From: Nitrospirota bacterium
Lineage (GTDB): Bacteria > Nitrospirota > Thermodesulfovibrionia > Thermodesulfovibrionales > JdFR-88
Assembly (NCBI GenBank): GCA_014874185.1
Contig: JACWAF010000005.1
Location: 18,655-82,654, forward strand
Length of the DNA stretch: 64,000 nt
Reading direction: 5' to 3'
Below, piece after piece: positions 31,097 through 55,627 of this stretch. Under the pieces are notes generated by a model. It worked only from the letters and a program-made list of their open reading frames with translations. It searched no databases and had not been told where the DNA came from. The translations under genes and the position numbers were made by a program. The stretch's first letter is position 1, and the number at the start of each line of letters is the position of its first letter.

Positions 31097-31101
31097 AGGT
31101 A

Positions 31102-31556: not shown

Positions 31557-31560
31557 ATTC

Positions 31561-31577: not shown

Positions 31578-31615
31578 TTCCCGGATTGAGAGAACTCTCA
31601 TGGCCCTCCGGGTGG

Positions 31616-31641
31616 TGTAACCCAGGAGGCGGAGCATTGCC
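31616..31641 (+). promoter_or_regulatory. JUMPstart/ops-like element, copy 2
   Basis: TGTAACCCAGGAGGCGGAGCATTGCC in the leader of rfbF. Confidence 0.6.
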
Positions 31642-31662
31642 CGGGGCTGAAAGGAGATGGCG

Positions 31663-38544: not shown

Positions 38545-38552
38545 GGTGATGA

Positions 38553-39395
38553 ATGCAGGAATTTGCGAAAAACGAGGAGGTCCTTGTGCAAATCCGCCCC
38601 ACTCGCGGTTGGGTCTCGCTGCAGTTGAAACGGCTCTGGGACTACCGCGAGCTTGTTTATTTCCTTACCTGGCGGGACGTAAAGGTGCGCTATAAACAGA
38701 CGGTGCTGGGGGCCTCATGGGCGATTATCCAGCCGCTGTTCACAATGGCGGTCTTCAGCCTTTTTTTTGGAAAGCTGGCCAAGGTGCCATCGGACGGCAT
38801 CCCGTATCCGGTCTTCAGCTATGCGGCGCTCGTCCCGTGGACATTCTTCGCGAACGGGTTGAATATGGCCTCAAACAGCCTTGTCTCAAGCGCGAACCTT
38901 ATAAAAAAGGTCTATTTCCCCCGCCTGGCCATGCCGCTGGCAACCGTGCTGAGCGGGGGGGTGGATTTCGTTCTGGCCTTCGCGGTGCTGGTCGGGATGA
39001 TCTATTTCTTCGGCATGGGGATAACCGCAAACGTGGTGTATCTTCCCTTTTTCCTCATGCTCACCTTCTGCACCTCGCTTGGGGTCTCGCTCTGGCTTTC
39101 GGCCATGAACGTGCAGTTCAGGGACATCAGGTACATAATACCGTTTTTGACCCAGCTTTGGATGTTCGCAACGCCGATAGCCTATCCGAGCGCCCTTCTT
39201 TCGGACCGGTGGCGGACGGTTTACGCCCTGAACCCGATGGTGGGCGTGGTGGAGGGGTTCCGGTGGGCCCTTCTGGGCACGAATACCGCGCCTGGGCCGA
39301 TGGTCATCGTTTCGACGGGGGCAAGCCTCCTTCTGCTTTTAACCGGCTCCTTCTACTTCCGCCGCATGGAGCGCACTTTCGCTGACGTGGTATAG
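38553..39395 (+). CDS. wzm: Polysaccharide ABC transporter permease
   Basis: RDVKVRYKQT.LG, KKVYFPR, FRD, NPM, six TM segments. Confidence 0.9.
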   Translation: MQEFAKNEEVLVQIRPTRGWVSLQLKRLWDYRELVYFLTWRDVKVRYKQTVLGASWAIIQPLFTMAVFSLFFGKLAKVPSDGIPYPVFSYAALVPWTFFANGLNMASNSLVSSANLIKKVYFPRLAMPLATVLSGGVDFVLAFAVLVGMIYFFGMGITANVVYLPFFLMLTFCTSLGVSLWLSAMNVQFRDIRYIIPFLTQLWMFATPIAYPSALLSDRWRTVYALNPMVGVVEGFRWALLGTNTAPGPMVIVSTGASLLLLLTGSFYFRRMERTFADVV

Positions 39396-39399
39396 GGAC

Positions 39400-40737
39400 A
39401 TGGGCACCGCTATTCTGGCAGAAAACCTTGGCAAGGAATACAGGATCGGGGGAAGGCAGGAGGGCTATAAGACCTTCCGCGAGGCCGTCGTGGAGACATG
39501 CATCTCCCCTTTCAGGAGGGCCAGGAATCTGATAATGGGAGATGCATCCGGCGCGTCCGGCCTCAAGGAGACCATCTGGGCCCTGAAGGACGTCTCGTTC
39601 GAGATCAGGCAGGGAGACATCGTGGGAATAATCGGCAGGAACGGCTCCGGGAAAAGCACGCTCCTGAAGATACTCTCCCAAATTACGGAGCCCACCTCCG
39701 GCTATGCCGAGGTGCGCGGCAGGGTAGGGTCTCTCCTGGAGGTGGGGACGGGGTTCCATCCCGAACTTACGGGCAGGGAGAACATTTACCTGAGCGGGGC
39801 CATCCTGGGCATGAGGAAGCGCGAGATCGTGAAGAAGTTCGAGGAGATAGTGGCCTTTGCGGAGATAGACAAGTTCATCGATACGCCCGTGAAGCACTAT
39901 TCAAGCGGCATGTACCTGCGGCTTGCCTTTGCCGTGGCCGCCCATCTGGAGCCCGAGATACTCCTTGTTGACGAGGTGCTTGCGGTGGGCGACGCGCGGT
40001 TCCAAAAGAAATGCATGAACAAGATGCAGGACGTGGGGCAGGAGGGCAGGACCGTACTCTTCGTCTCCCATAACATGCCCGCCGTAACCAGGCTGTGCAG
40101 GAATGCGGTCCTCCTTGAGGAGGGCCGCATATTGCAGATCGGGCCCTCCCATAAAGTGGTGAGCGCCTATCTCAGTTCGGACGCTGGCACCACGGCGGCG
40201 CGCGAATGGGAGGAGAAGAGGGCCCCAGGCGGCGAGATCGCCCGTTTAAGGGCCGTCCGAGTGCGTTCTGAAAACGGGGAGACAACGGACAAGGTGGACA
40301 TCCGCGAGCCGGTCAGGATAGAGATGGAATACGATGTGCTGAAGCCGGGCTGCAGGCTGCTGCCGGTTTTTTATTTTCATAATGAAGAAGGCATCCTGGT
40401 TTTTGAATCCAATGATATGGACCCGGCGTGGAGAAAAAAGCCCCGTCCCGCCGGACACTGGAAGAGCACGGTATATATCCCGGCGGATTTCATGGCCGAG
40501 GGAATCGTATATGTAGGGGCGGCGATGGTAACGCTGGATCCCGTTCTGGGACAGTTCGATGAGCACGATGCGGTCGCGTTCCAGGTTTATGACGGAAATA
40601 CCGGAGACTCCGCCCGCGGCGAGTGGCCCGGCGAGATTGCCTCGGCAGTGATGCCCCTCTTCAAATGGCGCACGGAACATGAACAGGGCCATGCAATGAC
40701 GGAAGCCTCAGGGGCCGGAAGAGCGGGGGCCAGATGA
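39400..40737 (+). CDS. wzt: Polysaccharide ABC transporter ATPase with C-terminal Wzt_C domain
   Basis: GRNGSGKST, YSSGM, DEVLAVGD, and a C-terminal extension of about 180 aa. Confidence 0.9.
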   Translation: MGTAILAENLGKEYRIGGRQEGYKTFREAVVETCISPFRRARNLIMGDASGASGLKETIWALKDVSFEIRQGDIVGIIGRNGSGKSTLLKILSQITEPTSGYAEVRGRVGSLLEVGTGFHPELTGRENIYLSGAILGMRKREIVKKFEEIVAFAEIDKFIDTPVKHYSSGMYLRLAFAVAAHLEPEILLVDEVLAVGDARFQKKCMNKMQDVGQEGRTVLFVSHNMPAVTRLCRNAVLLEEGRILQIGPSHKVVSAYLSSDAGTTAAREWEEKRAPGGEIARLRAVRVRSENGETTDKVDIREPVRIEMEYDVLKPGCRLLPVFYFHNEEGILVFESNDMDPAWRKKPRPAGHWKSTVYIPADFMAEGIVYVGAAMVTLDPVLGQFDEHDAVAFQVYDGNTGDSARGEWPGEIASAVMPLFKWRTEHEQGHAMTEASGAGRAGAR

Positions 40738-42047
40738 GGAACTCTCTTTTGGACCTGATGAAATGCCCCTTCTGCGGGGGGCGGTTCAACCGGACCGTTA
40801 TGGATGGCGCCGCGGGGGAAACCGAATACGGGCTTCTTGAATGCTACTGCGGCAAATACCCGGTAATAGCGGGAATTCCCGTGCTGAAAAAAGACCCTTC
40901 CGGGGAGCTGGACAGGATAGTAAGGATTTTAGAGTCCGGGCGGCACAGGGAAGCCCTCCTGGAGATGATCACGCCCGCGGAACTTAAACAAAAGCCCCAG
41001 GCAGCCGCAAGAAGGATCTTTAACCTGGTTCGGGCCGGCATCCATGGCGATCCCGCTAAAAGATGGAAGGCCCGTGCCTCCGAACTGCTATGGAGCGGTT
41101 CAGGCCGCCTCACGGCGTGCGATCTTCTGAGCTTCTATTTCAGGGACAAGGATATTTTCTACTATTTCGCGTATCGCCAAAGCCAGCCGCGCTATCTTGT
41201 GGGCCTGTCTTTTGCAAGCCTGGTGAAGGGGGCGGGGCCGGTCCTTGACCTTGCCTGCGGCTGCGGACACCTGACCGGATATCTCGCCAAAAACTCAGGC
41301 CGGGATGTGGCCGGAATAGACGAATTCTTTTTTGGCCTCTATATGGCAAAACACTGGATCGCACCGGCAGCGGAATATGTCTGCTGCAGGGCGGACTCCA
41401 CCCTCCCGTTCTCCGGCGGGGCGTTCTCATCCGTGTTCTGCTCGGACGCCTTCCATTATTTCGGGAACAAGGCCGGCGCCGTGCGCGAGATGAAAAGGCT
41501 TTTAACCGGAAAAGGGCTGATGCTTTTTGCGTGGGTTCACAACGCCCTCCGCAGGCGCGCATATGACGGCAGCCCGCTCCCGCCGGCAGGCTACGCATCC
41601 CTGTTTGAAGGCATGAATTACTCGATTGTATCAGCAAACGATGTGCTGGAGAGGTACTTGCGGAAGAAGGCCCCGGCTCTCCTCAGGTTTCCGGGCGCTT
41701 CGGTTGAAAACGAGCCGCTCCTATGCATGGCGGCAAGCACGGGAAGGGAGATCGAGGGCGACTACGGCGAATTCGAGGAATGGCCGCATGCCCAGGGGGA
41801 CCTGGGCCTCAATCCCATTTATTCAAAAAACGCCCGGCTTAACGGGAGAATGCATCTGCGCCGCAGCTTCCCAAGCGCCGGTTATGAGCGGGAGCACCCC
41901 GAGTCCAAAAGATATCTTCCGGAAGAGATCGAGATAAGGCCCCAAGCCCTGTCGGATTTGAAAGAAGGCAGGCGGACGGCGGAGATAAACAAGCTGATCG
42001 GCGATTTTGCCGTAACGGCAATGCCGAGACGGTATATGGAATGGTAG
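40734..42047 (+). CDS. SAM-dependent methyltransferase with N-terminal Trm112-like zinc ribbon
   Basis: CPFC...C.C..YPVIAGIP, VLDLACGCG, LPF...F..V. Confidence 0.75.
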   Translation: MRNSLLDLMKCPFCGGRFNRTVMDGAAGETEYGLLECYCGKYPVIAGIPVLKKDPSGELDRIVRILESGRHREALLEMITPAELKQKPQAAARRIFNLVRAGIHGDPAKRWKARASELLWSGSGRLTACDLLSFYFRDKDIFYYFAYRQSQPRYLVGLSFASLVKGAGPVLDLACGCGHLTGYLAKNSGRDVAGIDEFFFGLYMAKHWIAPAAEYVCCRADSTLPFSGGAFSSVFCSDAFHYFGNKAGAVREMKRLLTGKGLMLFAWVHNALRRRAYDGSPLPPAGYASLFEGMNYSIVSANDVLERYLRKKAPALLRFPGASVENEPLLCMAASTGREIEGDYGEFEEWPHAQGDLGLNPIYSKNARLNGRMHLRRSFPSAGYEREHPESKRYLPEEIEIRPQALSDLKEGRRTAEINKLIGDFAVTAMPRRYMEW

Positions 42048-42847
42048 GAGGGGCCCTGAAATCCGTCATTGTCGCCGCCCATCCCGACGACGAGGCGCTC
42101 TGGTTCAGCTCAATACTGAACGAGACGCGCGATATCACGATATGTTTTCTGGGCATCAAGTCAGACCCGGCCCGCACCAGCGGAAGAGAACGGGTCCTTT
42201 CGGCCCATCCGCATGAAAACCTGAGGGCGCTGGCAATCCGGGAGGCGGGCGTTTTCGGGAGGGCCGACTGGAACTCGCCGTCCGAGACCGGGTATGGGCT
42301 CCTGCTCTCAGACAGAAACAGCCCTTCCGATATCACCTATAAACAGAACTTCTACAAATTGAAAATGGTTTTAAGGGAAAGGCTCGCCGGGTTCGAGCGC
42401 GTCTTCACCCATGGCCCCTGGGGCGAATACGGAAACGAAGAACACGTGCAGGTCTACAGGGCCGTTTCCGCGCTTCAAAAAGAGCTTGGTTATCAGGTCT
42501 GGTTTCCAGGCTATTACTCCCAGAGGTCGTCCTTCCTATTTTTGAAATACCTTCCGGCCCTGGACAATGAATACATCCTTGCGGAAACGGACCGGGGCAT
42601 GGCGGAAACCCTGAAGGGGCTCTATGTTGAAAACGGAGCCTGGACCTGGTTTCCAGGATGGAAATGGCCCGAAAGGGAGAGTTTTCTCAGGCTGGCCCCG
42701 GAAGCTCATCCCGAAGACAAGCCGCATGACGCGGAAGGCGCCCTCTTCCCTCTGAACTTCATAAACTTCGGGCTCCCACTGAAAAAGAAAGAACCGGCGG
42801 GGCAGGCCCTGCTTAGGCTGGGAAGGGCCTGCTTCCCTCATCAATAA
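42041..42847 (+). CDS. PIG-L/LmbE-like deacetylase
   Basis: AHPDDE, THGPWGEYG...H. Confidence 0.7.
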   Translation: MVGGALKSVIVAAHPDDEALWFSSILNETRDITICFLGIKSDPARTSGRERVLSAHPHENLRALAIREAGVFGRADWNSPSETGYGLLLSDRNSPSDITYKQNFYKLKMVLRERLAGFERVFTHGPWGEYGNEEHVQVYRAVSALQKELGYQVWFPGYYSQRSSFLFLKYLPALDNEYILAETDRGMAETLKGLYVENGAWTWFPGWKWPERESFLRLAPEAHPEDKPHDAEGALFPLNFINFGLPLKKKEPAGQALLRLGRACFPHQ

Positions 42848-44082
42848 TGAAAGTGGCGAACCTCCTTTACAGCGATTACACCGTATGCGGAGGGGCTGGA
42901 ATCATGATGCTCCGGCAGCATGAGGCCCTGCGGTCGCTGGGTGTGGACTCGCATATCCTCTGCCGCGTGAAGACGGTCAACTCGCCGCAGGTGCATGAGA
43001 TCAAAATATCAAAGAACATGAAGAGGCTGGAATACGTGCTGATGCAGGCCGCGCGCAGGCTTGGGTTCAACGACCTGCACTGCCTCAGTTCCTACTCGAT
43101 CGGCGATGAGGAAGTGATCGAATCCGCCGATGTTGTCCATATACATGGGATACACGGAAATTTCTTTTCCTATCTTGCGCTTCCCGCGCTCACAAAAAAA
43201 AAGCCCACCCTCTTCAGTCTGCACGACATGTGGTGCTTTACCGGGCATTGCGCATCGAGCTACGACTGCGAAAGATGGAAGACCGGATGCGGAAACTGCC
43301 CATATCCGCAGATACACCCGCCGGTGAGAAGAGATACCACCCGGCTTGTCTGGAAGCTGAAAAAACGGGCCTTCGAAAACTCCCCTTTTGAAATAGCGGT
43401 GCCAAGCAGGAAGATGCTGGAACAGGTGGAAGAAAGCACGCTGAAAGGCAGGAAGGTCCATTACGTGCCCTTGGCGGTGGACACGGAAATATACAGGCCC
43501 ACTCACGATTGGGGGCTGAAACAGCTCCTGGGCATCGGGGAAAAGAAAAAAGTGGTCCTCTTCTGCACGAACGACATGAAAAACCATTACAAGGGGGGCG
43601 ACCTTCTGCTGAAGGCGCTTGCCGGGATGAGCGAACCGCTCAAAAGGAAGCTCCATCTCCTGATACTTGGAAAAGGCGGGCAGGGCTTTGCCGAAGGCAC
43701 CGGGATTGAGGCGATGGACCTGGGCTACATAAGCAACGAGCGGCTCAAGGCCGCCATCTATTCGCTGGCGGACGTCTTTGTCCACCCGACCCGCTCGGAC
43801 AATTTCCCGCTTGTCATCCTCGAAAGCCTGGCGTGCGGCACCCCGGTGGTCTCTTTCATGGTGGGCGGCATACCGGACATGGTGCGCCCCGGCCTGACGG
43901 GGTATCTGGCCCGTTTCGAGGACGTCGGGGATTTCGCGAACGGGATGACCTGTCTTTTGGAAGACGATTCACTGCTTGACCGGATGAGGGACAACTGCAG
44001 GGAAACAGCAGTGAAAGAGTATGACCTCAGATCGTATTCAAAAAAACTGATAGATATATACGGCGGCATTTCCGCAAATTAG
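42847..44082 (+). CDS. Glycosyltransferase family 4 (WcaC-like)
   Basis: LHDMW.FTGHC, KG, DNFPLVILESLACGTPVV. Confidence 0.88.
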   Translation: MKVANLLYSDYTVCGGAGIMMLRQHEALRSLGVDSHILCRVKTVNSPQVHEIKISKNMKRLEYVLMQAARRLGFNDLHCLSSYSIGDEEVIESADVVHIHGIHGNFFSYLALPALTKKKPTLFSLHDMWCFTGHCASSYDCERWKTGCGNCPYPQIHPPVRRDTTRLVWKLKKRAFENSPFEIAVPSRKMLEQVEESTLKGRKVHYVPLAVDTEIYRPTHDWGLKQLLGIGEKKKVVLFCTNDMKNHYKGGDLLLKALAGMSEPLKRKLHLLILGKGGQGFAEGTGIEAMDLGYISNERLKAAIYSLADVFVHPTRSDNFPLVILESLACGTPVVSFMVGGIPDMVRPGLTGYLARFEDVGDFANGMTCLLEDDSLLDRMRDNCRETAVKEYDLRSYSKKLIDIYGGISAN

Positions 44083-44105
44083 CACCCGTCCATTCAGGAG
44101 GCAAA

Positions 44106-45332
44106 ATGAGACCACGCAAGACGGTTCTGAAAACGCTCTTCCTTATTCTGATGGCGATTTGCCTTGGCGCGGGCACATCCTGGGCCGTAATAGGCAGCTG
44201 CGATTCCCCGGCCCGCATAATGCCGCTTGGCGACTCGATCACGCAGGGCGTTCAGGTCGACAACACGCCTGATTCGCTTCTGGTCGGCTATAGGCAGCCC
44301 TTGTATCTTTCTCTTACGCAGAATAACCGGCACAAAGTCGATTTCGTAGGCTCTTTGCAGAACGGGTGTTCGGCCACCCCGTATTTCGATTGCGCCCATG
44401 AGGGACACCCTGGCTTTTTGAGCGGCCAGATTGCCCAGAACGTATACAGCTGGCTGCAGTTGAACCCGGCGGATATCGTTCTTCTGCATATAGGCACCAA
44501 CGACCTTATGGTCAAACCGGCCGGTGAGGATTACCTCTCCGCTGACAATATCTCGAAGATACTGGACGAGATATACCGCTATAACCCGAAGATACTGGTC
44601 GTGCTTGCCCAGATAATCAATTGGCAGACCTATAACCCCGATGTAGCCACTTTCAACCAGAACATCGCGGATATGGCTCTGGCCAGGATACAGAACGGCG
44701 ACGATCTGATCCTCGTGAATATGGAAAATGCGCTCAGTTATCCGGATGACATGGCCAGTCTGCTCCATCCCGACCAGACCGGCTATAAAAAGATGGCGCA
44801 GGTATGGTTCAATGCGCTGGACAATGTCCTTCCGTTCTGCGGGAATGAACCGCCCACGAAGCCGCAGCTGGTCGCGCCGGAAGACAACCAGACCGGCGTG
44901 GGCAAAAACGTCACCTTCGAATGGAACAGGTCAACCGACCCCGATGGCGGCAAAGTCAATTACAGCCTTTACTATTGCGAAAGCCCTGATTTCGCGAACT
45001 GCCCCCCATTGAACATAACCGCACAGCAGGCGCGTCTCCGGAACACGAAGGGCTATGGTGCAGGCCTGCTGTTATTGGCGGCCGTTCTGGCTTTTCGGGC
45101 AAGGCGCAAAAAGAGGCTGGCCCTGCTTGTGTTCATCCCGCTCATCACGGGCTTGTTGTTGGTCTCCTGCAGCGGGGGAGGGGGGACCGCTCAGACCCAG
45201 CCGCCCCCATTTGACGGGCTCTCCTATACGGCTGGCCTCAATCCGGGCACGACTTATTACTGGAAGGTGGCGGCCGTTGATTCAAACGGCGCGTCTTCGG
45301 AAAGCGGCGTCTGGTCTTTCAAGACGAAATAA
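44106..45332 (+). CDS. Exported SGNH/GDSL hydrolase with split Fn3-like C-terminal domain
   Basis: Signal peptide, IMPLGDSIT, HEG..G, IGTND, LHP...GY.KMA. C-terminal module shared with the next gene. Confidence 0.82.
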   Translation: MRPRKTVLKTLFLILMAICLGAGTSWAVIGSCDSPARIMPLGDSITQGVQVDNTPDSLLVGYRQPLYLSLTQNNRHKVDFVGSLQNGCSATPYFDCAHEGHPGFLSGQIAQNVYSWLQLNPADIVLLHIGTNDLMVKPAGEDYLSADNISKILDEIYRYNPKILVVLAQIINWQTYNPDVATFNQNIADMALARIQNGDDLILVNMENALSYPDDMASLLHPDQTGYKKMAQVWFNALDNVLPFCGNEPPTKPQLVAPEDNQTGVGKNVTFEWNRSTDPDGGKVNYSLYYCESPDFANCPPLNITAQQARLRNTKGYGAGLLLLAAVLAFRARRKKRLALLVFIPLITGLLLVSCSGGGGTAQTQPPPFDGLSYTAGLNPGTTYYWKVAAVDSNGASSESGVWSFKTK

Positions 45333-45397
45333 ACAAGCTCACAAGGGTCTTGCGCAATGGCTATTCAGTCGTAATAACTTCAACGAAGGAGGAGAAT

Positions 45398-46705
45398 ATG
45401 AAGAGGTCAGGGTTCCTGGTTTTATTTTCCGCGTTTGTTGCAGTCTCTCTTGTGTTTGGGGTCCTGCCGGGCAAATCATGGTCGGCATCATGTCCCGATC
45501 TGGGTTACTGGAGACTTGACGAACAGTCACAGCCTTACAAGGACAACATCTTCGGCGAAAACGCCACATGCACGAACTGCCCCAGCCCCGGCACGGGAAT
45601 CGTCAACGGCGCGCAGACCTTTACCGCCGGTTCCCAGGTGAGCGTCCCCTATGTCAGCGACATGGACTACATATTCGGCTTTGGCGCCACCGACAGCTTC
45701 TCGCTCGAGGCATGGGTAAAGGCCGATCCCGGCAACCTCTGCACCAATGTCCAGAGCTTTCTTGGCCGGGTTGAAGACTGGGACCATCTGCAGTGGTACA
45801 TAGGCTGCGCCCAGGGCGGCAGCAGTCTGTTTGTCCTGCATGACGCCCTCGGGAAAGGCGGCGAAGTGGACGGCACGGCGAAGATCAACGACGGCAACTG
45901 GCACCAGGTGGTTGGTGTGCGTGATGCTTCGGCGAACCAGATATTGCTGTATGTTGATGGCAAACCCGACGGTTCCGCCCCTATCACCTTATCCAGCAAT
46001 TTCAAATCCAGCACGAACCTTACGCTTGGCTGGCTCTCATACGGCTCAGACGGCAACCACTGGCTTGGCGCGCTGGACGAAGTGGCCGTATTCGGAAACG
46101 CCCTCAGCGCGGGCGATGTTGCCGCCCAGTACTCGAAGATAACCACCAGCCATGTTGGTTATTGCGATAATGCGCCGGTGTCAACGGACAATCCGCCCAC
46201 CGCGCCCGTGCTGGTCTCTCCGATTGACAACGCAACCGGGGTGGACACGAGCGTGACCTTCCAATGGAACCATTCGACTGACCCCGAAGGCGAAGCCATC
46301 AGCTATGACCTTTATTACTGCGACAACCCCAACCCGCAGGCCTGTGCCGCAATTGCAAATGCCGGTGCAGGGGCGAAAGCGGCCTCGCTTGAGAAGAAGG
46401 ACTCCGTCTTTGCCGGTCTTGGCGGTTACGGAGCCGGCCTCCTGCTCTTCGGATTTGTCCTGGCAGGCGGCACGAGGCGCAGGAAGAAACTCTGGGCGCT
46501 GGTGGCAATCCTGGTCTTCTCCGGCATGTTCCTGATCTCCTGCGGCGGAGGCGGAAGCGGCAGCAGTTCCACACCTCCGGCCAGCGGACTTTCACAGGAC
46601 GTTACCGGCCTGAAGAACGGTACAACCTACTCCTGGCAGGTTGTCGCCAAGGATTCCAAAGGCAACAGCACGCCAAGTAAAGTAAGGACCTTCAAAACCA
46701 AGTAA
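45398..46705 (+). CDS. Exported LamG/concanavalin-like protein with split Fn3-like C-terminal domain
   Basis: SD AGGAGG then ATG 45398, signal peptide, YWRLDE, FSLEAWVK, DGNWHQVVGV, LYVDG, G.LDEVA.F..ALS. Confidence 0.82.
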   Translation: MKRSGFLVLFSAFVAVSLVFGVLPGKSWSASCPDLGYWRLDEQSQPYKDNIFGENATCTNCPSPGTGIVNGAQTFTAGSQVSVPYVSDMDYIFGFGATDSFSLEAWVKADPGNLCTNVQSFLGRVEDWDHLQWYIGCAQGGSSLFVLHDALGKGGEVDGTAKINDGNWHQVVGVRDASANQILLYVDGKPDGSAPITLSSNFKSSTNLTLGWLSYGSDGNHWLGALDEVAVFGNALSAGDVAAQYSKITTSHVGYCDNAPVSTDNPPTAPVLVSPIDNATGVDTSVTFQWNHSTDPEGEAISYDLYYCDNPNPQACAAIANAGAGAKAASLEKKDSVFAGLGGYGAGLLLFGFVLAGGTRRRKKLWALVAILVFSGMFLISCGGGGSGSSSTPPASGLSQDVTGLKNGTTYSWQVVAKDSKGNSTPSKVRTFKTK

Positions 46706-46713
46706 GCGGCCCG

Positions 46714-47454
46714 ATGCGGCCCCTTCCGTCCAATGCCGGACTGCGGCGCTTGCGGCGCTTATGGATACGGTTCTGGATGCTCATGGCCGGAAGGGGCCCG
46801 CTGGGCAGGTTCGCCGCGCGGATGGCCGCCGCGGCAACCCCGCCTTTTTACGGGAGATGCTTTCTTGCCCGCCTGAATAAAAAAGGTTTCATATCGCCAA
46901 GGGCCGAGATCGCGCACGGTCAGCTGGAGATTGGCCCCAACGTCTTCATAGGCGACCGCGTGACCATTTACAGGGATTCCCTTGGGGGGCCGGTGCGGAT
47001 AGGCGAACGGAGCCACCTCTATGCGGACATCGTCATACAGACTGGAGACGGGGGCAGTTTGCGCATAGGCGCAAATACGCACATCCAGCCCCGCTGTCAT
47101 TTTTCGGCCTACAAGGCCGGAATTCGCATCGGCGACAACGTGCAGATTGCGCCCGCCTGCGCCTTTTATCCCTATTCGCATGGGATGGAGGCCGGAAAGC
47201 CGATAATGGGCCAGCCGCTAAGTACAAAAGGGGGCATCATTATTGAAAACGATGTCTGGGTTGGCTATGGAGCGGTGGTGCTTGAGGGCGTAACGGTTGG
47301 AACGGGGGCGGTAATCGGCGCGGGATCGGTCGTGACCCGTGATGTTCCCGCCGGGGCGGTTTGTGCCGGCGTGCCGGCGAGAGTACTCAGGATGCGCGGG
47401 GATTTCGAAGGGGAGGGCCTCAGGCCGGAGGGTGCCGATACGGGTGAAAAATGA
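46714..47454 (+). CDS. Hexapeptide-repeat O-acyltransferase
   Basis: Left-handed beta-helix repeats, IENDVWVG, GAGSVVT.DVP, GVPA. Confidence 0.85.
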   Translation: MRPLPSNAGLRRLRRLWIRFWMLMAGRGPLGRFAARMAAAATPPFYGRCFLARLNKKGFISPRAEIAHGQLEIGPNVFIGDRVTIYRDSLGGPVRIGERSHLYADIVIQTGDGGSLRIGANTHIQPRCHFSAYKAGIRIGDNVQIAPACAFYPYSHGMEAGKPIMGQPLSTKGGIIIENDVWVGYGAVVLEGVTVGTGAVIGAGSVVTRDVPAGAVCAGVPARVLRMRGDFEGEGLRPEGADTGEK

Positions 47455-48455
47455 TGGGGCCGCCGCTTGTAAGCGTAGTCACCCCCCTGCACAACGGTGA
47501 AAAATACCTCGCCGAATGCATCCGGAGCGTTCTCTCTCAAACGTATGAAAACTGGGAGTACATAATTGTAAATAACAAAAGCACCGACAGGTCCGCTCAA
47601 GTAATGGCGCGGTACGCGGCGGGGGAGCGGCGCATCAAGGCCCGCGAGAACGAGAAATTCCTGAGCGCCCTCGAAAACCACAACCGCGCATTCAGGCTCA
47701 TTTCACCGGAAGGCAAATACTGCAAGGTGGTGCACGCGGATGACTGGCTTTATCCCGATTGCCTGGAAAAGATGGTGGCCCTTGCCGAGGAGGACGAGGC
47801 CGTCTCGCTGGTTGGTTCGTATGCCCTTGAGGGCGATTACGTCCGCTTTGACGGGCTGCCATATGAAAAAAGGATAGTGTCCGGGCGGGAAGTCTGCAGG
47901 CGGTCTCTGCTGGGCGGCCCGTATGTATTCGGCTCACCGACAACCTTGCTCTTCAGGTCGGACGTGGTAAGGGGAAAAGAAAAATTTTACGACGAGGGCC
48001 ATCTGCACGCTGACGAGGAGGCCTGTTACGAGGCGTTGAGAGGCGGCGCCAAATTCGGTTTTGTCCACCAGGTGCTGGCCTATTCGCGTGTGCATGACGG
48101 GAGAGAAAGCTCGAAGGCCGAGAAGTTCAATGCATATATAACGGGCGGTCTGGACATCTTCAGAAAATATGGTCCGGTTTATCTGGGCCCGGAAGAATTC
48201 GAATCGACTGGGAAAAGGAAACTCAAGGCATATTACCGGTTCCTGGCCGAAAGCCTGATCGAGGGGCGGGAGAAGGAATTCTGGCATTTCCACCGGAGCG
48301 AACTGAAAAAGATGGGGATGGCCCTGAGCGGCATGAGGCTTGCAGGCGAGACGGCAATACTGGCCGGATTGAAGCTTCTGGATATCAAGGCCAATCTGAA
48401 AACAATAAAGAGGATGATCTCACTTATTAACAGTCTCGTAATAGGATGCACTTAA
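47451..48455 (+). CDS. Glycosyltransferase family 2
   Basis: LVSVVTP.HN, S.D.S, ADD. The last residues are encoded inside the MITE-like element. Confidence 0.87.
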   Translation: MMGPPLVSVVTPLHNGEKYLAECIRSVLSQTYENWEYIIVNNKSTDRSAQVMARYAAGERRIKARENEKFLSALENHNRAFRLISPEGKYCKVVHADDWLYPDCLEKMVALAEEDEAVSLVGSYALEGDYVRFDGLPYEKRIVSGREVCRRSLLGGPYVFGSPTTLLFRSDVVRGKEKFYDEGHLHADEEACYEALRGGAKFGFVHQVLAYSRVHDGRESSKAEKFNAYITGGLDIFRKYGPVYLGPEEFESTGKRKLKAYYRFLAESLIEGREKEFWHFHRSELKKMGMALSGMRLAGETAILAGLKLLDIKANLKTIKRMISLINSLVIGCT

Positions 48456-48591
48456 TTATTAGAAAATCCCTCCTAACCTACCCTTTGTCAAAGGGCCTTT
48501 GCCAAAGGGAGGGATTACCCCTCTTTGGAAAAGAGGGGCGAGGGGAGATTTTCCGGCCAAAATGTCTGTTCAATTATGAGACCCTTAATAA
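48424..48591. mobile_element. MITE-like element (168 bp) with 19-bp imperfect terminal inverted repeats
   Basis: TTATTAACAGTCTCGTAAT ... ATTATGAGACCCTTAATAA (16/19), internal hairpins such as CCCCTCTTTGGAAAAGAGGGG, AT-rich ends. Confidence 0.65.
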
Positions 48592-49556
48592 TGGCAGCGG
48601 TTGAAGGGAAACACGCGGTATCGGTCGTAATACCGCTTTTCAACAAGGCGGACTTCATCGGACGGGCGCTTTCCTCCACCCTTAATCAAAGCCACCCGCC
48701 GTTGGAGGTGATAGTGGTGGATGACGGCTCGACCGATGCCGGACCGGAAATCGTGCGCGGGTTCAAGCTGGATTCCGTGCGGCTCCTGAAACAGCCCAAC
48801 AGCGGGCCCGGGCCGGCCAGAAACAGGGGGATGCGCGAAGCGCGCGGAAAATATATAGCCTTTCTCGATGCGGACGACGAATGGTCCCCGGACCTCCTGA
48901 AGACGGGCATTGCTTTTCTGGAAGGAAATGACGCGGCTGTGGTCTCGATGGGCTATTATCTCTATCCCGTTATGCGCAGGAATACGGACGGGCTTTCCCC
49001 GTCTGTAACCGGCGTTCACGAGGTCACTCCAGATACACCCGTCCAATCTGTAAAAGAGCTGGTAACGGCGGCCCACCTCGGGTTCAGCGTAATGAGGCTT
49101 GATATGGCAAAAAAGATGGGCGGATATTTTGATAAATTCAAGTCCCTTCGCGGAGAGGACACCTATTTCTATCTGAAGGTCCTTTTCAACGAGAGGGTCG
49201 GCATCCTGAAAGAACCCCAGGGCTATTACCACATGGACGCCTCGGAGCTGTGCGGGTGCGAGTTCAGGCATGTGCCCCCGCTGGAGCCGTTCCTTATAGA
49301 CCCCGACCCCCTGGTCTCCTCCTGCCCGGCTGAAAAAAGAGAGCTTCTGAAAGAGTATCTTTCGCTGAGGGCGCTTAGAAACGCCGTCATGTACGCGAAA
49401 CTGGGCCGGAAAAATATCTCAAAAGCGCTCATTGCCCGCTTTTGCTCAAACGGCCACCCGTATTCCAGGGGCACTCTGGGGGCCAGGCTTCTGGCCGAAG
49501 TTTCCCCCCTCCTGCCTTCGGCACGAAAAATCTACGGGGCCATAAAGCGCGCCTGA
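48591..49556 (+). CDS. Glycosyltransferase family 2
   Basis: VSVVIPLFN, VVDDGSTD, ARN.G, FLDADD. Confidence 0.88.
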   Translation: MAAVEGKHAVSVVIPLFNKADFIGRALSSTLNQSHPPLEVIVVDDGSTDAGPEIVRGFKLDSVRLLKQPNSGPGPARNRGMREARGKYIAFLDADDEWSPDLLKTGIAFLEGNDAAVVSMGYYLYPVMRRNTDGLSPSVTGVHEVTPDTPVQSVKELVTAAHLGFSVMRLDMAKKMGGYFDKFKSLRGEDTYFYLKVLFNERVGILKEPQGYYHMDASELCGCEFRHVPPLEPFLIDPDPLVSSCPAEKRELLKEYLSLRALRNAVMYAKLGRKNISKALIARFCSNGHPYSRGTLGARLLAEVSPLLPSARKIYGAIKRA

Positions 49557-49563
49557 GGAAAAG

Positions 49564-50916
49564 ATGTCCGAATCCTACATGGAAAGAATCAGATACGTAT
49601 CCGCTCATAAATGGCTGATATTTATTGTCCTCACGGCACTGCTGGCCGGGATGGGGATTACCGGAAACTGGCTGTACTGCGGGGTTTTGGCCGCCCCGTT
49701 TCTGCTTTATCTCTTCTTCGAAAGGCCGTTCCTTTTCCCGCTTGGGGCCTATGTTTTTCTTCTCCCGTTTGACTCTGTGCTGTCCATAACCGGCAATGGG
49801 GCAGGCTCCACCCTCACAAAGGTACTGGGCATGGCCTCGGCCGCTTCTCTTCTGGCAAACGGACTTCTGAGGAGGCGTTTTACACTGCCAAGGGGGGCGG
49901 CGCTATGGTGGATGCTCTTTATCCTTTATGGGGCTGTTTCCATCCTGTGGGCAAAGAATTTCGAAGAGGCGGTGGACCGGATGCCAACGGCGCTCAGCCT
50001 TCTGGGCCTCTACCTGGTCGCCGCTTCCTTCAGGGTGAAAAAAAAGGAATATGATCTTTTGAAGTGGGCCATAATCGCGGGAGGGGTCCTCTCCGCGCTG
50101 TATTCCATTTATTCCTACAAGACCGGCGTGTACGACGACCCCAGGCTCAGGGCCTCGATCCTGATCGGGGGCCGCTATACCGACCCAAACCAGTTCGCCT
50201 TCAGCATTCTTCTGCCAGTCGCGCTCTGCCTGGGGACATTGCTCAAGACGCCTTCCATCAGGAAAAAAGCCTTTTACGGCGCAAGCCTTCTGATAATGAT
50301 CTACGGGGTGGTCGTGACAGGCTCCAGGGGGTCGCTGCTTGCCACTGCCGTCATGATCGCCTTTTACCTGCTCTCGATAAAACAGAAGATCAGTTTCGGG
50401 ATAGCGGCCGGGGCGATAGCCGTCATCATGTTCTCGTTCGTGCCCGATTTTTTCATCCATCGGATCGGACAGGCTGAGGCCACCGGTGGCGCCGGAAGGC
50501 TGTTTATCTGGGAAGTAGGCCTTCATGCCGTCAAAAAATACTGGCTCTTCGGAGTGGGACTTAGCAACTTCTATGAGGCGTACATGGAATTCGTGAATTA
50601 TGGGCCCGCTTTCCGCGTGGGGGCAACCGCCCCGCATAATATCTACCTGGACGCCGTCGTCAGCCTTGGCACCCCGGGGATTTTACTGATGCTTGCGGCC
50701 ATGGGTAAGCACTACCAGCTGCTTAAAGCGAGGTTTACCACGCCCGATATGGAAAAAACGGCTTTGAAGGCCGCGTTCTGGGGGACCCTGGCGGCGAGCT
50801 TCTTCCTGGACACAATCTGGCGCAAATCATTCTGGCTGCTCTGGATGATGATGGCCATGAACAGGAACCTGCTGCCGGCCCCTTTTTTCAGGAGGAGTTA
50901 CCCGGATGAGGAATGA
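49564..50916 (+). CDS. O-antigen ligase/Wzy-like membrane protein
   Basis: Many TM segments, DPN, TGSRG, R..IW, GVG, HNIYL. Confidence 0.85.
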   Translation: MSESYMERIRYVSAHKWLIFIVLTALLAGMGITGNWLYCGVLAAPFLLYLFFERPFLFPLGAYVFLLPFDSVLSITGNGAGSTLTKVLGMASAASLLANGLLRRRFTLPRGAALWWMLFILYGAVSILWAKNFEEAVDRMPTALSLLGLYLVAASFRVKKKEYDLLKWAIIAGGVLSALYSIYSYKTGVYDDPRLRASILIGGRYTDPNQFAFSILLPVALCLGTLLKTPSIRKKAFYGASLLIMIYGVVVTGSRGSLLATAVMIAFYLLSIKQKISFGIAAGAIAVIMFSFVPDFFIHRIGQAEATGGAGRLFIWEVGLHAVKKYWLFGVGLSNFYEAYMEFVNYGPAFRVGATAPHNIYLDAVVSLGTPGILLMLAAMGKHYQLLKARFTTPDMEKTALKAAFWGTLAASFFLDTIWRKSFWLLWMMMAMNRNLLPAPFFRRSYPDEE

Positions 50917-52171
50917 GAAAACCCTTATTGTGCTCACATCCTCCTACCCCTTCGGCAAGGGTGAAGTCTACCTGGAAAAGGAGATCGAATATTTAAAAAG
51001 CGCCTTTGGCCGCGTCATCCTCCTCCCGGAGACCAGATACCCCTCGATGCGTCCGACGGGTGCGGGGGTGGAAGTGGACCCTTCCATAACCATATCGGGA
51101 GAAAAAAACGCCTGGGACCGGCTGAAGGCGATCTCAAGGTGCGTGCTCTCCTCCCGTTTCCATGCGGAGGCAATTGAAAACTCATCGAAACTGCGCGAAT
51201 TCGCCGCGCTCAAAAATCTTGTTTCCACTCTTTACACCGCGATCAGGATCAGGAACTGGATCGAAAGAAAGGCCTATGCCGGAGAACTCTCCACCGGGGG
51301 GGACCTCTTCTATTCCTGCTGGCTCGGGAAAAGCGCACTTGGAGCCGCCTTCGCCAAATTGCGTGGGACGCGGCTCAGGATAATAAGCAGGGCCCACGGG
51401 GGCGACCTTTACGAAGACAGAATGCCCGCGGGTTATGCCCCGTTCAGGCGGACGATCATGGAGGGGGTGGACAGGATTTGCTGTGTTTCAAACCATGGCA
51501 AGGAGTATCTGAAGAAGAATTATCCTTATATCAAGGACAAGGTCACGGTCTCCAAGCTTGGGGTGACGGACCCTGGCTTCGATGCACCCGTCTCGGAAGA
51601 CGGGACTATACGGATTGTCACCTGCTCTTCGCTGAACCCGGTAAAGAGAATAGACCTCCTCATAGACGGGATGAAAAGGTTTTCCGAGATCGCCCCCGAA
51701 CAGGATGTGCGCTGGACGCACATAGGGGACGGTCCGCTCCTGAACAGGGTGAAGGCATACGCGGGCCAGCGCCTTGGCGGCCGCATATCCCATGTCTTCG
51801 CGGGCGCAATGGAAAACCGGAGGGTGCTGGAATATTACAGGCTGAACCCCGTTGACCTGTTCGTGAACGTCAGCAGCAGCGAGGGGATCCCCATCTCCGT
51901 CATGGAAGCCCAGAGCTGCTCCATTCCCGTCATGGCCACTGACGTGGGCGGCGTTCCGGAGATCGTGAACGAGGCCAACGGCTTTCTGCTTCCGGCAAAC
52001 CCGGGGCCTGAACTGATAGCCGGGACACTGAGGAAATTCGCCCGGATGCGGGGCGAACGCGGCCGGATGAGACTGGAGAACAAGATCAACTGGAAGCTCC
52101 ATTACGACTCGGATTCCAACTATTCGCGTTTTGTTGATGAACTGGCCTGTCTTGCGGAGAACAAATGGTAG
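50906..52171 (+). CDS. Glycosyltransferase family 4
   Basis: RAHGGD, KRID, SEGIPISVMEA, TDVGG. Confidence 0.88.
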   Translation: MRNEKTLIVLTSSYPFGKGEVYLEKEIEYLKSAFGRVILLPETRYPSMRPTGAGVEVDPSITISGEKNAWDRLKAISRCVLSSRFHAEAIENSSKLREFAALKNLVSTLYTAIRIRNWIERKAYAGELSTGGDLFYSCWLGKSALGAAFAKLRGTRLRIISRAHGGDLYEDRMPAGYAPFRRTIMEGVDRICCVSNHGKEYLKKNYPYIKDKVTVSKLGVTDPGFDAPVSEDGTIRIVTCSSLNPVKRIDLLIDGMKRFSEIAPEQDVRWTHIGDGPLLNRVKAYAGQRLGGRISHVFAGAMENRRVLEYYRLNPVDLFVNVSSSEGIPISVMEAQSCSIPVMATDVGGVPEIVNEANGFLLPANPGPELIAGTLRKFARMRGERGRMRLENKINWKLHYDSDSNYSRFVDELACLAENKW

Positions 52172-52758: not shown

Positions 52759-52762
52759 TTTT

Positions 52763-53764: not shown

Positions 53765-53772
53765 ACAGGCGG

Positions 53773-55625: not shown

Positions 55626-55627
55626 AA

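What the first reader, a model, noticed from the sequence alone, without database searches (positions are those of the whole stretch)
44844..46705. Candidate new sorting/anchoring signal: Fn3-like domain split by a TM hairpin ending in an internal lipobox
Seen: two adjacent exported proteins with unrelated cargo (SGNH hydrolase; LamG lectin-like) end in the same module (44844-45332 and 46187-46705). Its order is PPT.P.LV.P.DN.TGV...VTF.WN.STDP.G....Y.LYYC(x7)C, a linker, GYGAGLLL plus a hydrophobic helix, a basic cluster (RARRKKR / RRRKK), a second hydrophobic helix ending LLVS-C / FLIS-C (Cys codons 45168, 46541), a Gly run, then GL..GTTY.W.V.A.DS.G....S.V..FKTK. Established: the two flanks read as the first and last strands of one Fn3-like beta-sandwich, and basic + hydrophobic + L-x-S-C is the lipoprotein signal read by Lgt/LspA. 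Known C-terminal tags (PEP-CTERM, GlyGly-CTERM, LPXTG) end at the basic tail and do not resume a folded domain. Inference: the internal Cys is lipidated and cleaved, giving a lipopeptide of about 54 aa that completes the fold by strand complementation and tethers the cargo. A second cut near GYGAG could release the hairpin. The genes sit in a sigma54-controlled polysaccharide locus, a context like that of PEP-CTERM proteins, but no exosortase is in the window. I do not know a described family with this layout.
Basis: partly seen in the sequence, partly recalled or inferred. Interest (0 to 1): 0.88.

Follow-up and report, generated by a model that had tools for sequence, protein, structure and literature searches.

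The report
Lipobox hairpin splitting an Fn3 anchor
Two neighbouring exported proteins end in a conserved tail, a small beta-sandwich domain interrupted by a membrane hairpin whose second helix looks like a lipoprotein signal, which probably gives them a lipid anchor at the "wrong" (C-terminal) end; database curators have already flagged the design, but nobody has tested it.

Summary
Both genes (44106-45332, 45398-46705) end in the same 162-172 aa module. Two more copies sit elsewhere in this 2.43 Mb genome, on a beta-helix and a beta-propeller cargo.

In 45 of 45 non-redundant modules from several phyla the Cys is kept, inside a lipobox (-1 is S/A in 44) and mostly followed by Gly (39). AlphaFold2 puts both flanks at pLDDT above 90. 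Single solved Fn3 domains align across model residues 1-172 (Z 10.8), so the hairpin sits in a loop of one Fn3. The genome has lgt, lspA, lnt, LolA and LolCE but no exosortase.

It is not undescribed. NCBIfam NF058595, "lipo-invert putative C-terminal anchoring domain", matches the hairpin core just under its cut-off (33 and 24.6 bits against 37). Its true members show the same layout, including Fn3-split forms at 37.4 bits. I found no paper on it.

GYGAG is not conserved. No dedicated protease and no split-gene form was found.

Best reading (0.55): Lgt and LspA lipidate and cut at the internal Cys, leaving a lipopeptide of about 54 aa that completes the Fn3. This is untested.

The parts
44106..45332 (+). 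ORF A, 408 aa: N-terminal Sec-type signal peptide (read by eye), SGNH/GDSL hydrolase domain (aa 38-232), then the C-terminal module
44844..45050 (+). Module A, N-terminal part of the Fn3 (strands A-C') with the conserved Cys pair C45/C53, plus linker
   Evidence: by homology with the module B model
45051..45095 (+). Module A, helix 1 (GYGAGLLLLAAVLAF), Gly-rich and hydrophobic
45096..45116 (+). Module A, basic cytoplasmic loop (RARRKKR)
45117..45170 (+). Module A, helix 2 ending in the lipobox L-V-S-C (Cys codon 45168-45170)
45171..45329 (+). Module A, post-Cys piece of 53 aa: Gly-rich linker, then Fn3 strands E-F-G
   Evidence: (fn3 profile 55-79)
45398..46705 (+). ORF B, 435 aa from ATG 45398 (the mechanical ORF starts at TTG 45350): signal peptide, LamG-like domain, then the C-terminal module
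   Evidence: (database copy P0049 is 435 aa)
46187..46408 (+). Module B, N-terminal part of the Fn3 (strands A-C', pLDDT 90-97 for residues 1-50) plus a low-confidence linker
46409..46471 (+). Module B, helix 1 (FAGLGGYGAGLLLFGFVLAGG)
   Evidence: helix 84-93
46475..46489 (+). Module B, basic loop (RRRKK)
46490..46543 (+). Module B, helix 2 ending in the lipobox L-I-S-C (Cys codon 46541-46543)
   Evidence: (helix 99-113)
46544..46702 (+). Module B, post-Cys piece of 53 aa: Gly/Ser linker, then Fn3 strands E-F-G (pLDDT 94-97)
   Evidence: (fn3 profile 52-82, 28 bits)
27691..63317 (+). Context: a co-directional glycan-biosynthesis cluster holding a sigma-54 response regulator, sugar-nucleotide enzymes, an ABC-2 exporter pair, GT1/GT2/GT4 transferases, an acetyltransferase and a Wzy_C/O-antigen-ligase-like protein

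Best explanation
The tail is a C-terminal membrane-anchoring module of the 'lipo-invert' design.

Proposed steps:
1. The cargo is exported by its N-terminal Sec signal.
2. Helix 1 stops transfer, and the Arg/Lys loop stays in the cytoplasm.
3. Helix 2 re-inserts N-in/C-out, exactly like a lipoprotein signal peptide. This places the invariant lipobox Cys at the outer face of the inner membrane.
4. The housekeeping enzymes Lgt, LspA and Lnt then lipidate the Cys and cut before it.
5. The result is a lipopeptide of about 54 aa. Its three beta-strands (E, F, G) complete the Fn3 sandwich begun by strands A-C' on the cargo chain.
6. The cargo is thus held non-covalently to a lipid anchor at its C-terminal end.

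What is shown: the module, its recurrence on unrelated cargo, the invariant lipobox, the single Fn3 fold, and the presence of the enzymes.

What is inferred: lipidation, cleavage, persistence of the two-chain Fn3, the fate of the leftover hairpin, and the final membrane.
For: - Recurrence: there are four copies in the own genome, all at C-termini, on SGNH, LamG, Chondroitinase_B-like beta-helix and DUF7948+SBBP propeller cargos. Relatives carry the module on Peptidase_S8, Calx-beta/InlB-repeat and ASH/HYDIN-Ig cargos.
- Lipobox: the Cys is kept in 45 of 45 non-redundant modules. Position -1 is S in 36, A in 8 and N in 1. Position -3 is L in 29. The residue after the Cys is G in 39 and never Asp. 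The post-Cys length is 48-78 aa, median 54.
- Signal-peptide geometry: the uncharged run before the Cys is 14-20 aa (median 17, n=45). It is 11-22 aa (median 15) in 54 candidate N-terminal lipoproteins of the same genome, found by a crude regex. The loop's net charge is +3 or more in 42 of 45 modules.
- Likeness to real signals: the weaker NF058595 hits in the own genome are ordinary N-terminal lipoprotein signals of the type ..AACGGGG. C-GG follows 8 of the 54 candidates, against 1.06% of all Cys.
- One fold: AF2 of module B with 19 sequences gives block-mean pLDDT of 90-97 for residues 1-50, and 81 then 94-97 for residues 131-172. Single Fn3 domains align over model range 1..172. The best is 9kvu_A at Z 10.8, rmsd 2.0, 91 residues aligned to a 94-residue chain. 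Of 48,161 chains, 165 reach Z >= 8.
- Enzymes: lgt, lspA, lnt, LolA and LolCE are all over their cut-offs in the own genome.
- Two-chain form: the halves given as separate chains drew 'weak support', score 0.58 against a best control of 0.00. The mark was reached by 58 of 80 solved complexes and 2 of 110 mismatched pairs. At 0.60 or under it was reached by only 7 of those 80 and by both mismatches. The runs agree in at least 96% of contacts and the partner's pLDDT is at least 73. The chains are halves of one Fn3, so this pass may only reflect likeness to solved Fn3 structures.
- Independent view: NCBI curators named the same layout a putative C-terminal anchoring domain.
Against: - There is no experimental datum of any kind.
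- The Fn3 could fold equally well with an uncleaved hairpin. The linkers on both sides are long (13-23 aa and about 14 aa) and of low confidence.
- After an LspA cut the cargo chain would still carry helix 1, the loop and helix 2, and so would stay membrane-bound anyway. The benefit of the lipid is therefore unclear unless a second cut occurs, and I found no candidate for it. There is no conserved neighbouring gene. The two CPBP paralogues do not track the module. CPBP1 is present in 8 of 13 module-bearing genomes against 1 of 28 without, but it is missing from complete module-bearing genomes such as G005. CPBP2 occurs in only 5 of 41 genomes.
- No natural split-gene form (signal peptide plus three strands as a stand-alone small lipoprotein) was found. 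Partial hits in the phylum were frameshifted or chimeric MAG copies.
- Two modules have weak loops (net charge 0-1) and one has Asn at -1.
- LspA is not known to me to accept a signal helix tethered upstream to another helix (own knowledge). Searches for internal lipobox or internal lipoprotein signal found nothing.
Confidence: 0.55

Rival explanations
1. Plain two-helix hairpin anchor. The module simply staples the cargo to the inner membrane through an uncleaved hairpin in a loop of a membrane-proximal Fn3. The Cys is either lipidated without cleavage or serves some other role.
For: The topology is self-consistent without any processing: Sec export, stop-transfer, positive loop inside. The flexible, low-pLDDT linkers allow the Fn3 to fold with the insert in place. 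No dedicated protease was found. After LspA cleavage the cargo would be hairpin-anchored anyway.
Against: A plain anchor needs neither a Cys nor a lipobox. Yet the Cys is kept in 45 of 45 modules across several phyla, with S/A at -1 in 44 and Gly next in 39. Helix 2 has signal-peptide length rather than full transmembrane length, with a median of 17 uncharged residues. A single C-terminal helix would suffice as an anchor.
Confidence: 0.27
2. Two-step sorting tag with release. Helix 1 plus the basic loop is a classical C-terminal sorting signal cut by an unidentified sortase-like or intramembrane protease. The cargo is released or transferred, and the Fn3 never forms as a stable two-chain domain.
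For: Helix 1 plus the basic cluster gives faint hits to C-terminal sorting models: GPS-CTERM at E 0.024 and GG_III-CTERM at E 0.08-0.1, both below cut-off. Helix 1 is Gly-rich, and many copies show a loose YAG-x-G motif before it. The genome holds one rhomboid and two CPBP proteases.
Against: The post-Cys strands are the best-conserved part of the module (W, V, A, D invariant) and pack with the N-half at high confidence. That makes no sense if they are discarded. The motif before helix 1 is absent from most copies in the window's own family. There is no exosortase. Rhomboid and CPBP proteases are near-universal (controls), and the CPBPs do not co-occur cleanly with the module.
Confidence: 0.13
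3. Artefact. Two genes, a cargo with a C-terminal helix and a small downstream lipoprotein, are read as one because of a missed stop or an assembly error.
For: Some MAG copies are frameshifted exactly in the Lys/Arg-coding stretch, or are chimeric.
Against: All 45 non-redundant modules from independent assemblies are single open frames, including one from a record whose longest contig is 4.66 Mb (P0154). The flanks are halves of one domain. No stand-alone small form was found.
Confidence: 0.02

Closest known systems
NCBIfam NF058595.1 'invert_tail': lipo-invert putative C-terminal anchoring domain (release 20.0, June 2026)
   Same: Both are C-terminal, with helix, basic loop, helix ending in a lipobox Cys, a Gly/Ser/Pro linker, and a short beta-strand tail that ends the protein. 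The profile matches the window's hairpin cores at positions 19-84 of 113. Best members (L041-L043, 55-66 bits) show ..TLTITT / helix / RRR / helix ..ASC / linker / ..VTVTASSGSG...TLTVTR. Fn3-split relatives pass at 37.4 and 37.1 bits.
   Different: The window's proteins score below the cut-off of 37. They score 33.0 and 24.6 bits as whole proteins, 35.5 and 27.4 as modules alone, and 36.2 in the six-frame search. The model does not cover the Fn3 flanks, and its best members carry another Ig-like sandwich with two strands after the Cys, where this module has three. I could not read the curators' description and found no paper. The model's core also picks up ordinary N-terminal lipoprotein signals, one of them at 37.9 bits (L045).
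Classical bacterial lipoprotein pathway (Lgt, LspA, Lnt, Lol)
   Same: There is a positive n-region, a hydrophobic h-region of 14-20 residues, a lipobox L-[VIA]-[SA]-C and a Gly-rich start of the mature part, as in this genome's own lipoproteins. The enzymes are present.
   Different: The signal is internal, about 55 aa from the C-terminus, and is tethered upstream to another helix and a folded cargo. The 'mature lipoprotein' would be only a three-strand fragment.
MYXO-CTERM / myxosortase MrtX (PMC11980579; abstract and nine passages read)
   Same: Both are C-terminal tags with an invariant Cys, a membrane helix and an Arg-rich cytoplasmic stretch, on Sec-exported cargo. Both are proposed to yield a C-terminal lipid anchor.
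   Different: In MYXO-CTERM the Cys lies before a single helix, there is no defined lipobox, and the topology is inverted relative to Lgt substrates. A dedicated CPBP protease cuts, and the lipid stays covalently on the cargo. Here a second helix restores the normal signal-peptide topology and a standard lipobox, the lipid would sit on a separate chain, and no dedicated protease was found.
PEP-CTERM/exosortase and GlyGly-CTERM/rhombosortase tags
   Same: Helix 1 plus the Arg/Lys cluster resembles the helix-plus-basic-tail of these tags. The genes sit in a polysaccharide locus with a sigma-54 activator.
   Different: There is no PEP motif, and no exosortase in the own genome (PF09721, 0 matches, 100% complete genome). 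The regulator is below the PEP-CTERM-box regulator cut-off (378 against 502.6 bits). These tags end at the basic tail and do not continue into a second helix and a folded piece (own knowledge).
Ordinary unsplit bacterial Fn3 domains of the P-x-L-x-S-P ... GTTYYWKV type
   Same: The two flanks match such domains separately. The profile search found 21,915 proteins at E <= 0.001, and 140 of the best 150 are multi-Fn3 proteins hit by half-profiles. The fold match is Z 9-10.8.
   Different: A stretch of about 60-75 aa (helix, loop, helix, lipobox and linkers) is inserted between strands C' and E.

Membership tests
NCBIfam NF058595 (lipo-invert C-terminal anchoring domain) | HMM score at or above the curated cut-off of 37 bits | tested here: not met
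   ORF B scores 33.0 bits (35.5 as module alone, 36.2 in six frames). ORF A scores 24.6 bits (27.4 as module alone). Relatives with the same Fn3-split module reach 37.4 and 37.1 bits.
NCBIfam NF058595 (lipo-invert C-terminal anchoring domain) | Layout seen in its best members: C-terminal helix, basic loop, helix ending in a lipobox Cys, linker, then a short beta tail | tested here: met
   for the window's modules. for members L041-L043.
NCBIfam NF058595 (lipo-invert C-terminal anchoring domain) | The hairpin splits a beta-sandwich that the tail completes (my reading of the members, not a curated criterion) | tested here: inconclusive
   Met for the window's Fn3. The AF2 model of member L041's tail had mean pLDDT 49 with only 3 sequences. 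Strand order fits, but the model cannot be trusted.
Fibronectin type III (PF00041) | Pfam score over the cut-off of 25 bits, and the Fn3 fold | tested here: met
   ORF B scores 28.0 bits, but only on profile positions 52-82. ORF A scores 19.9 bits, below the cut-off. The model of module B aligns to single Fn3 domains over residues 1..172 at Z 10.8, rmsd 2.0, 91 aligned.
Bacterial lipoprotein (Lgt/LspA substrate) | Lipobox [LVI][ASTVI][GAS]C after a positive n-region and a hydrophobic h-region | tested here: met
   The consensus itself is recalled from own knowledge.
Bacterial lipoprotein (Lgt/LspA substrate) | The signal lies at the N-terminus of the precursor | tested here: not met
   The signal lies 48-78 aa from the C-terminus, behind cargo, a half-Fn3 and helix 1.
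Bacterial lipoprotein (Lgt/LspA substrate) | Diacylglyceryl modification and LspA cleavage actually occur | not testable with these tools
   Only the presence of lgt, lspA and lnt is shown.
PEP-CTERM / exosortase system | An exosortase gene in the genome and a PEP motif in the tag | tested here: not met
   PF09721 gave 0 matches in a 100% complete genome. No PEP motif is present in the module. The short TIGR02595 scan rang nowhere, controls included, and is uninformative.
MYXO-CTERM / myxosortase | An invariant Cys immediately before a single C-terminal helix, and a dedicated CPBP protease | tested here: not met
   The Cys follows the second helix. The two CPBP genes of the genome do not co-occur cleanly with the module.

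The most novel reading that the evidence does not exclude
Housekeeping Lgt, LspA and Lnt process an internal, C-terminal lipoprotein signal. They create a two-chain protein in which a triacylated peptide of about 54 aa donates three strands to finish an Fn3 domain. This would be a bacterial route to a C-terminal lipid anchor that needs no dedicated sortase. It could be attached to any exported cargo by domain shuffling. Once the leftover hairpin is degraded, the anchor could be carried by Lol to the outer membrane. The same cassette has entered at least two different beta-sandwich folds.
Probability: 0.35. Interest if true: 0.85.

Novelty: new variant of a known kind. Interest (0 to 1): 0.6.

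Why it matters
Bacteria are known to lipidate proteins only at the new N-terminus made by LspA. C-terminal anchoring normally needs dedicated enzymes such as sortase, exosortase, rhombosortase or myxosortase.

If this module is processed as its sequence suggests, it would be the first case of three things at once. It would be an internal LspA site used as a sorting device. It would be a folded domain deliberately split into two chains by signal-peptide processing. And it would be a sortase-free C-terminal lipid tether.

It would also explain how enzymes and lectins of a glycan locus (here an SGNH esterase and a LamG protein) are kept at the envelope. It would give a portable anchoring tag for protein display.

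In practical terms, the window's proteins fall just under the NCBIfam cut-off. They, and most of the 45 modules collected here, are likely to go unlabelled in annotation. A profile that includes the Fn3 flanks separates true modules from ordinary Fn3 and from ordinary lipoprotein signals. In the own genome it scored 107 bits or more for true modules, against 21 bits for the next hit.

Tried and rejected
1. Dedicated protease by neighbourhood. An all-against-all BLAST of ORFs around 15 module loci found nothing shared in three or more loci except the module genes themselves and generic histidine-kinase and sigma-54-regulator genes.

2. Dedicated protease by co-occurrence. CPBP1 (C12) is in 9 of 41 relatives: 8 of 13 with the module and 1 of 28 without. 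It is missing from complete module-bearing genomes, so the pattern looks like shared ancestry. CPBP2 (C34) is in 5 of 41. The single rhomboid was not profiled because the family rang in all 14 control genomes.

3. Natural split-gene form. A search with the piece from the basic loop to the end (77 aa), limited to proteins of 42-135 aa, gave 15 candidates and none at E <= 0.001. Short partial hits in the phylum scan were fetched and read in three frames. All six fetched places were frameshifted, chimeric or at a contig end, and none was a clean split.

4. Generalising the split-sandwich idea to the best NF058595 members. The AF2 model had pLDDT 49, so this is inconclusive.

5. PEP-CTERM context. 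There is no exosortase. The regulator is a generic NtrC-type one, below the TIGR02915 cut-off. The PEP-CTERM scan was uninformative. Sigma-54 promoter-like sites are not enriched.

6. Rfam at gathering thresholds found nothing in the window. The promoter and terminator scan around the two genes was at chance level.

7. Literature. Searches for 'lipo-invert', 'NF058595', 'invert_tail', 'inverted lipoprotein', 'internal lipobox', 'internal lipoprotein signal (peptide)', 'C-terminal lipoprotein signal', 'second lipobox', and 'internal signal peptide' with 'signal peptidase II' found no relevant paper in the library searched. Subscription journals are not covered.

8. The profile search of 1.84 billion representatives was swamped by ordinary multi-Fn3 proteins. 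Only 10 of the 150 listed rows carried the whole module, 4 of them from the own genome. It therefore gives no family size.


Full report
**What is there**

The window holds two adjacent, co-directional genes. ORF A is 44106-45332 (408 aa). ORF B is 45350-46705 as a mechanical ORF, but it most likely starts at ATG 45398, because the identical database protein P0049 has 435 aa.

Pfam finds a GDSL/SGNH hydrolase domain in A (53 bits) and a Laminin_G_3 domain in B (78.7 bits). In both tails it finds only the last third of an Fn3 profile, positions 52-82. Both proteins begin with Sec-type signal peptides; I read these by eye and ran no predictor.

- Fn3-like strands with a Cys pair
- a linker
- a Gly-rich hydrophobic helix
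- RARRKKR or RRRKK
- a second hydrophobic helix ending LLVS-C or FLIS-C
- a Gly run
- GL..GTTY.W.V.A.DS.G...FKTK

The Cys codons are at 45168 and 46541, as stated.

**It is a family, not a coincidence**

I built an HMM from the two tails and searched 18,625 six-frame ORFs of the window's own genome (2.43 Mb, 42 contigs, 100% complete). It found four hits: 337, 310, 116 and 107 bits. The next hit scored 21 bits.

The two extra copies also lie at C-termini. One protein has a Chondroitinase_B-like beta-helix. The other has DUF7948 plus SBBP propeller repeats.

Distribution in relatives:
- In 41 relatives, 15 genomes matched at E <= 1e-5. Of these, 13 have a near-full module and two match only the Fn3 C-half. 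In the window's own family, 10 of 11 genomes matched.
- In an even sample of 301 genomes of the phylum, 27 matched at E <= 1e-15.
- Among 80 loci from named public records, 15 hold a full module. Their titles name Thermodesulfovibrio/Nitrospirota, a 'delta proteobacterium', SAR324, Spirochaetaceae/Spirochaetales and Desulfuromonadales MAGs. Each module ends 0-5 residues before the stop codon.
- A protein named from Desulfuromonas versatilis (P0154) carries the module behind a Peptidase_S8 domain.
- Other cargos are LamG plus ASH/HYDIN Ig repeats, and Calx-beta plus InlB-type repeats.
- One relative (P0147) fuses LamG and GDSL in a single protein with the same tail. This ties the window's two neighbouring genes together functionally.

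One module in a record titled 'Nitrospirae bacterium' is identical to that of G001, a genome of the window's family. The window therefore probably comes from a Nitrospirota (Thermodesulfovibrionia-like) genome. This is an inference.

**The Cys and its surroundings**

I pooled 49 modules and removed 4 duplicates, which left 45. Frameshifted or chimeric copies were left out; one contig-truncated copy was kept. All 45 have the Cys in the aligned column.

- Position -1 is S (36), A (8) or N (1).
- Position -3 is L in 29.
- The next residue is G in 39, S in 2, P in 2, R in 1 and A in 1. It is never Asp.
- The piece after the Cys is 48-78 aa long, median 54.
- The uncharged run before the Cys is 14-20 residues, median 17. 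In 54 candidate N-terminal lipoproteins that a crude regular expression finds in the same genome, it is 11-22 residues, median 15.
- The loop between the helices has a net charge of +3 or more in 42 of 45 modules.

The organism's own lipoproteins often start C-G-G-G-G.

By contrast, GYGAG is not conserved. The stretch is Gly-rich and hydrophobic, often with a loose YAG-x-G before it, and it is quite different in most copies of the window's own family.

**One domain, split**

AlphaFold2 on module B, with a 19-sequence alignment, gave pLDDT of 90-97 for residues 1-50 and 94-97 for residues 141-172. It placed two low-confidence helices at 84-93 and 99-113, and disordered linkers between.

I then ran a Foldseek-independent search of 48,161 solved chains. 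Single Fn3 domains aligned across model residues 1..172. The best was 9kvu_A at Z 10.8, rmsd 2.0, with 91 residues aligned to a 94-residue chain. Next came 3pdg_A at Z 10.0, with 85 residues aligned to 91. In all, 165 chains reached Z >= 8.

So the flanks are strands A-C' and E-G of one Fn3, and the hairpin sits in the C'-E loop.

Given as two separate chains (residues 1-62 and 120-172), the halves drew 'weak support'. The score was 0.58 against a best control of 0.00. The mark was reached by 58 of 80 solved complexes and 2 of 110 mismatched pairs. At 0.60 or under it was reached by only 7 of those 80 and by both mismatches. The runs agreed in at least 96% of contacts, and the partner's pLDDT was at least 73. 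These are halves of a fold with many solved examples, so the pass may show only that likeness.

**Already described?**

Partly. NCBIfam release 20.0 holds NF058595.1, 'invert_tail: lipo-invert putative C-terminal anchoring domain-containing protein', with a cut-off of 37 bits.

- It matches the hairpin cores of both window proteins over profile positions 19-84 of 113. The scores are 33.0 and 24.6 bits for whole proteins, 35.5 and 27.4 for modules alone, and 36.2 in the six-frame search. All are below the cut-off.
- In 301 genomes of the phylum, 5 had a match over the cut-off.
- Three of these (55-66 bits) end in another Ig-like domain. That domain is interrupted, before its last two strands, by a helix, RRR, and a helix ending ..AS-C or ..AG-C. 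The profile spans from the strand before the first helix to the last strand.
- One genome has Fn3-split modules like the window's, at 37.4 and 37.1 bits.
- One hit at 37.9 bits is an ordinary N-terminal lipoprotein. So are the weak hits in the own genome. This shows that the profile's core is a lipoprotein signal peptide.

The design has therefore been noticed and named by curators. The window's copies are sub-threshold, Fn3-embedded instances.

I could not read the curators' comment. Full-text searches for the name, the accession and several phrasings of 'internal lipobox/lipoprotein signal' found no paper. Pfam has no model for the hairpin.

**Machinery and context**

The own genome has one each of lgt (264.7 bits), lspA (106.7), lnt (368.8), LolA (75.2) and LolCE (409.6), all over their cut-offs. 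It has no exosortase, one rhomboid and two CPBP proteases.

The two genes lie in a long co-directional glycan cluster. The cluster holds:
- a Polysacc_synt_2 dehydratase
- a sigma-54 response regulator of generic NtrC type, below the PEP-CTERM-box regulator cut-off
- sugar-nucleotide enzymes
- an ABC-2 exporter pair
- several glycosyltransferases
- a hexapeptide acyltransferase
- a Wzy_C protein

Sigma-54 promoter-like sites are not enriched.

**How it most likely works**

Shown:
- Sec-exported cargo.
- A hairpin whose loop obeys the positive-inside rule.
- A second helix with the orientation, length, lipobox and Gly-rich continuation of this organism's lipoprotein signals.
- An Fn3 that needs both flanks.

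Inferred:
- Lgt adds diacylglycerol to the Cys, LspA cuts before it, and Lnt acylates the new N-terminus.
- The resulting lipopeptide of about 54 aa stays bound to the cargo by completing the Fn3.

This reading explains why a Cys with a lipobox is invariant, which a plain hairpin anchor would not need. It also explains why the post-Cys strands are the most conserved part, which a discarded tag would not need.

The reading fits the MYXO-CTERM precedent. In the passages I read of PMC11980579, an invariant Cys before a single helix is proposed to be lipidated, possibly by Lgt despite 'an inverted topology' and no lipobox, and is then cut by a dedicated CPBP protease. The hairpin here would solve the same topological problem without a new enzyme.

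One point stays open. After LspA cleavage the cargo chain still ends in helix 1, the loop and helix 2. Either the cargo stays in the inner membrane, doubly held, or the hairpin is later degraded. General signal-peptide peptidases or the rhomboid are candidates from own knowledge, but none is supported here. Only in the second case could Lol carry the complex outward. The residue after the Cys is never Asp, which in E. coli would mean 'not retained'. That rule is recalled and may not hold in this phylum.

**Against, and rivals**

- Nothing experimental exists.
- I found no conserved neighbouring gene, no cleanly co-occurring CPBP and no natural split-gene version.
- The uncleaved-hairpin rival (0.27) remains physically possible, because the linkers are long.
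- A release-type sorting tag (0.13) fits the Gly-rich helix 1 and faint hits to C-terminal sorting models. It does not fit the conservation of the tail strands.
- An annotation artefact (0.02) is excluded by 45 independent open frames.

**Verdict**

The claim of an undescribed family is not upheld: this is a sub-threshold, Fn3-embedded variant of the curated but unpublished and untested 'lipo-invert' tail. Interest is moderate to high, because the mechanism, if shown, would be a new way to anchor bacterial proteins.

Noticed in passing
window 45350-45398: The mechanical ORF B starts at TTG 45350, but the identical database protein (P0049) has 435 aa. The real start is therefore probably ATG 45398, which gives MKRSGFLVLF... 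as the signal peptide.
   Followed up: partly
P0147 (same protein as in L037, genome G029): A relative fuses LamG, GDSL/SGNH and ASH/HYDIN-type Ig repeats in one 991-aa protein with the same tail. The window's two adjacent genes correspond to one fused cargo elsewhere, which suggests that the esterase and the lectin work together.
   Followed up: partly
window 44976-44978 and 45000-45002; 46319-46321 and 46343-46345: A second conserved feature of the module is a Cys pair (Y-Y-C-x7-C) in the C-C' region of the Fn3. It is invariant in the genome's four copies and common but not universal in relatives (absent in L039 and L040). It is probably a disulfide.
   Followed up: no
L143 (G108:C214), L145 (G077:C41), L146 (G260:C10), L148 (G291:C5): Several MAG copies of the module are frameshifted. 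In L143 and L145 the shift falls in or just after the Lys/Arg-coding stretch between the two helices. These could be homopolymer assembly errors or real pseudogenes; I did not decide which.
   Followed up: partly
L147 (G244:C158): An open frame joins an AMP-dependent ligase-like N-part directly to ..MLLVSCGGGG plus the three Fn3 strands. It looks like an assembly chimera or a recombination remnant.
   Followed up: no
L045 (G078:C14): An ordinary 141-aa N-terminal lipoprotein scores 37.9 bits on NF058595, just over the curated cut-off of 37. The model's threshold therefore does not fully separate true tails from plain lipoprotein signals in six-frame searches.
   Followed up: partly
own genome C17:2757-22986 (around the third copy): By eye, the beta-helix protein with the module also sits next to GT2/GT4-like glycosyltransferase genes, with a histidine kinase and response regulator pair some 7 kb upstream. 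This would be a second glycan-locus context for the module. I ran no family search on these neighbours.
   Followed up: no
window 31562-31576: A -24/-12-like site (GGCAC-N5-TTGC, one mismatch) lies about 80 bases upstream of the nucleotidyl-transferase gene at 31657, just after the sigma-54 activator gene. Window-wide, such sites are not enriched (7 against 4.05 expected).
   Followed up: partly
window 36503-37822: A DUF4910/DUF2172/HTH_47 protein (342 bits) sits inside the glycan cluster, and no NCBIfam model names it.
   Followed up: no
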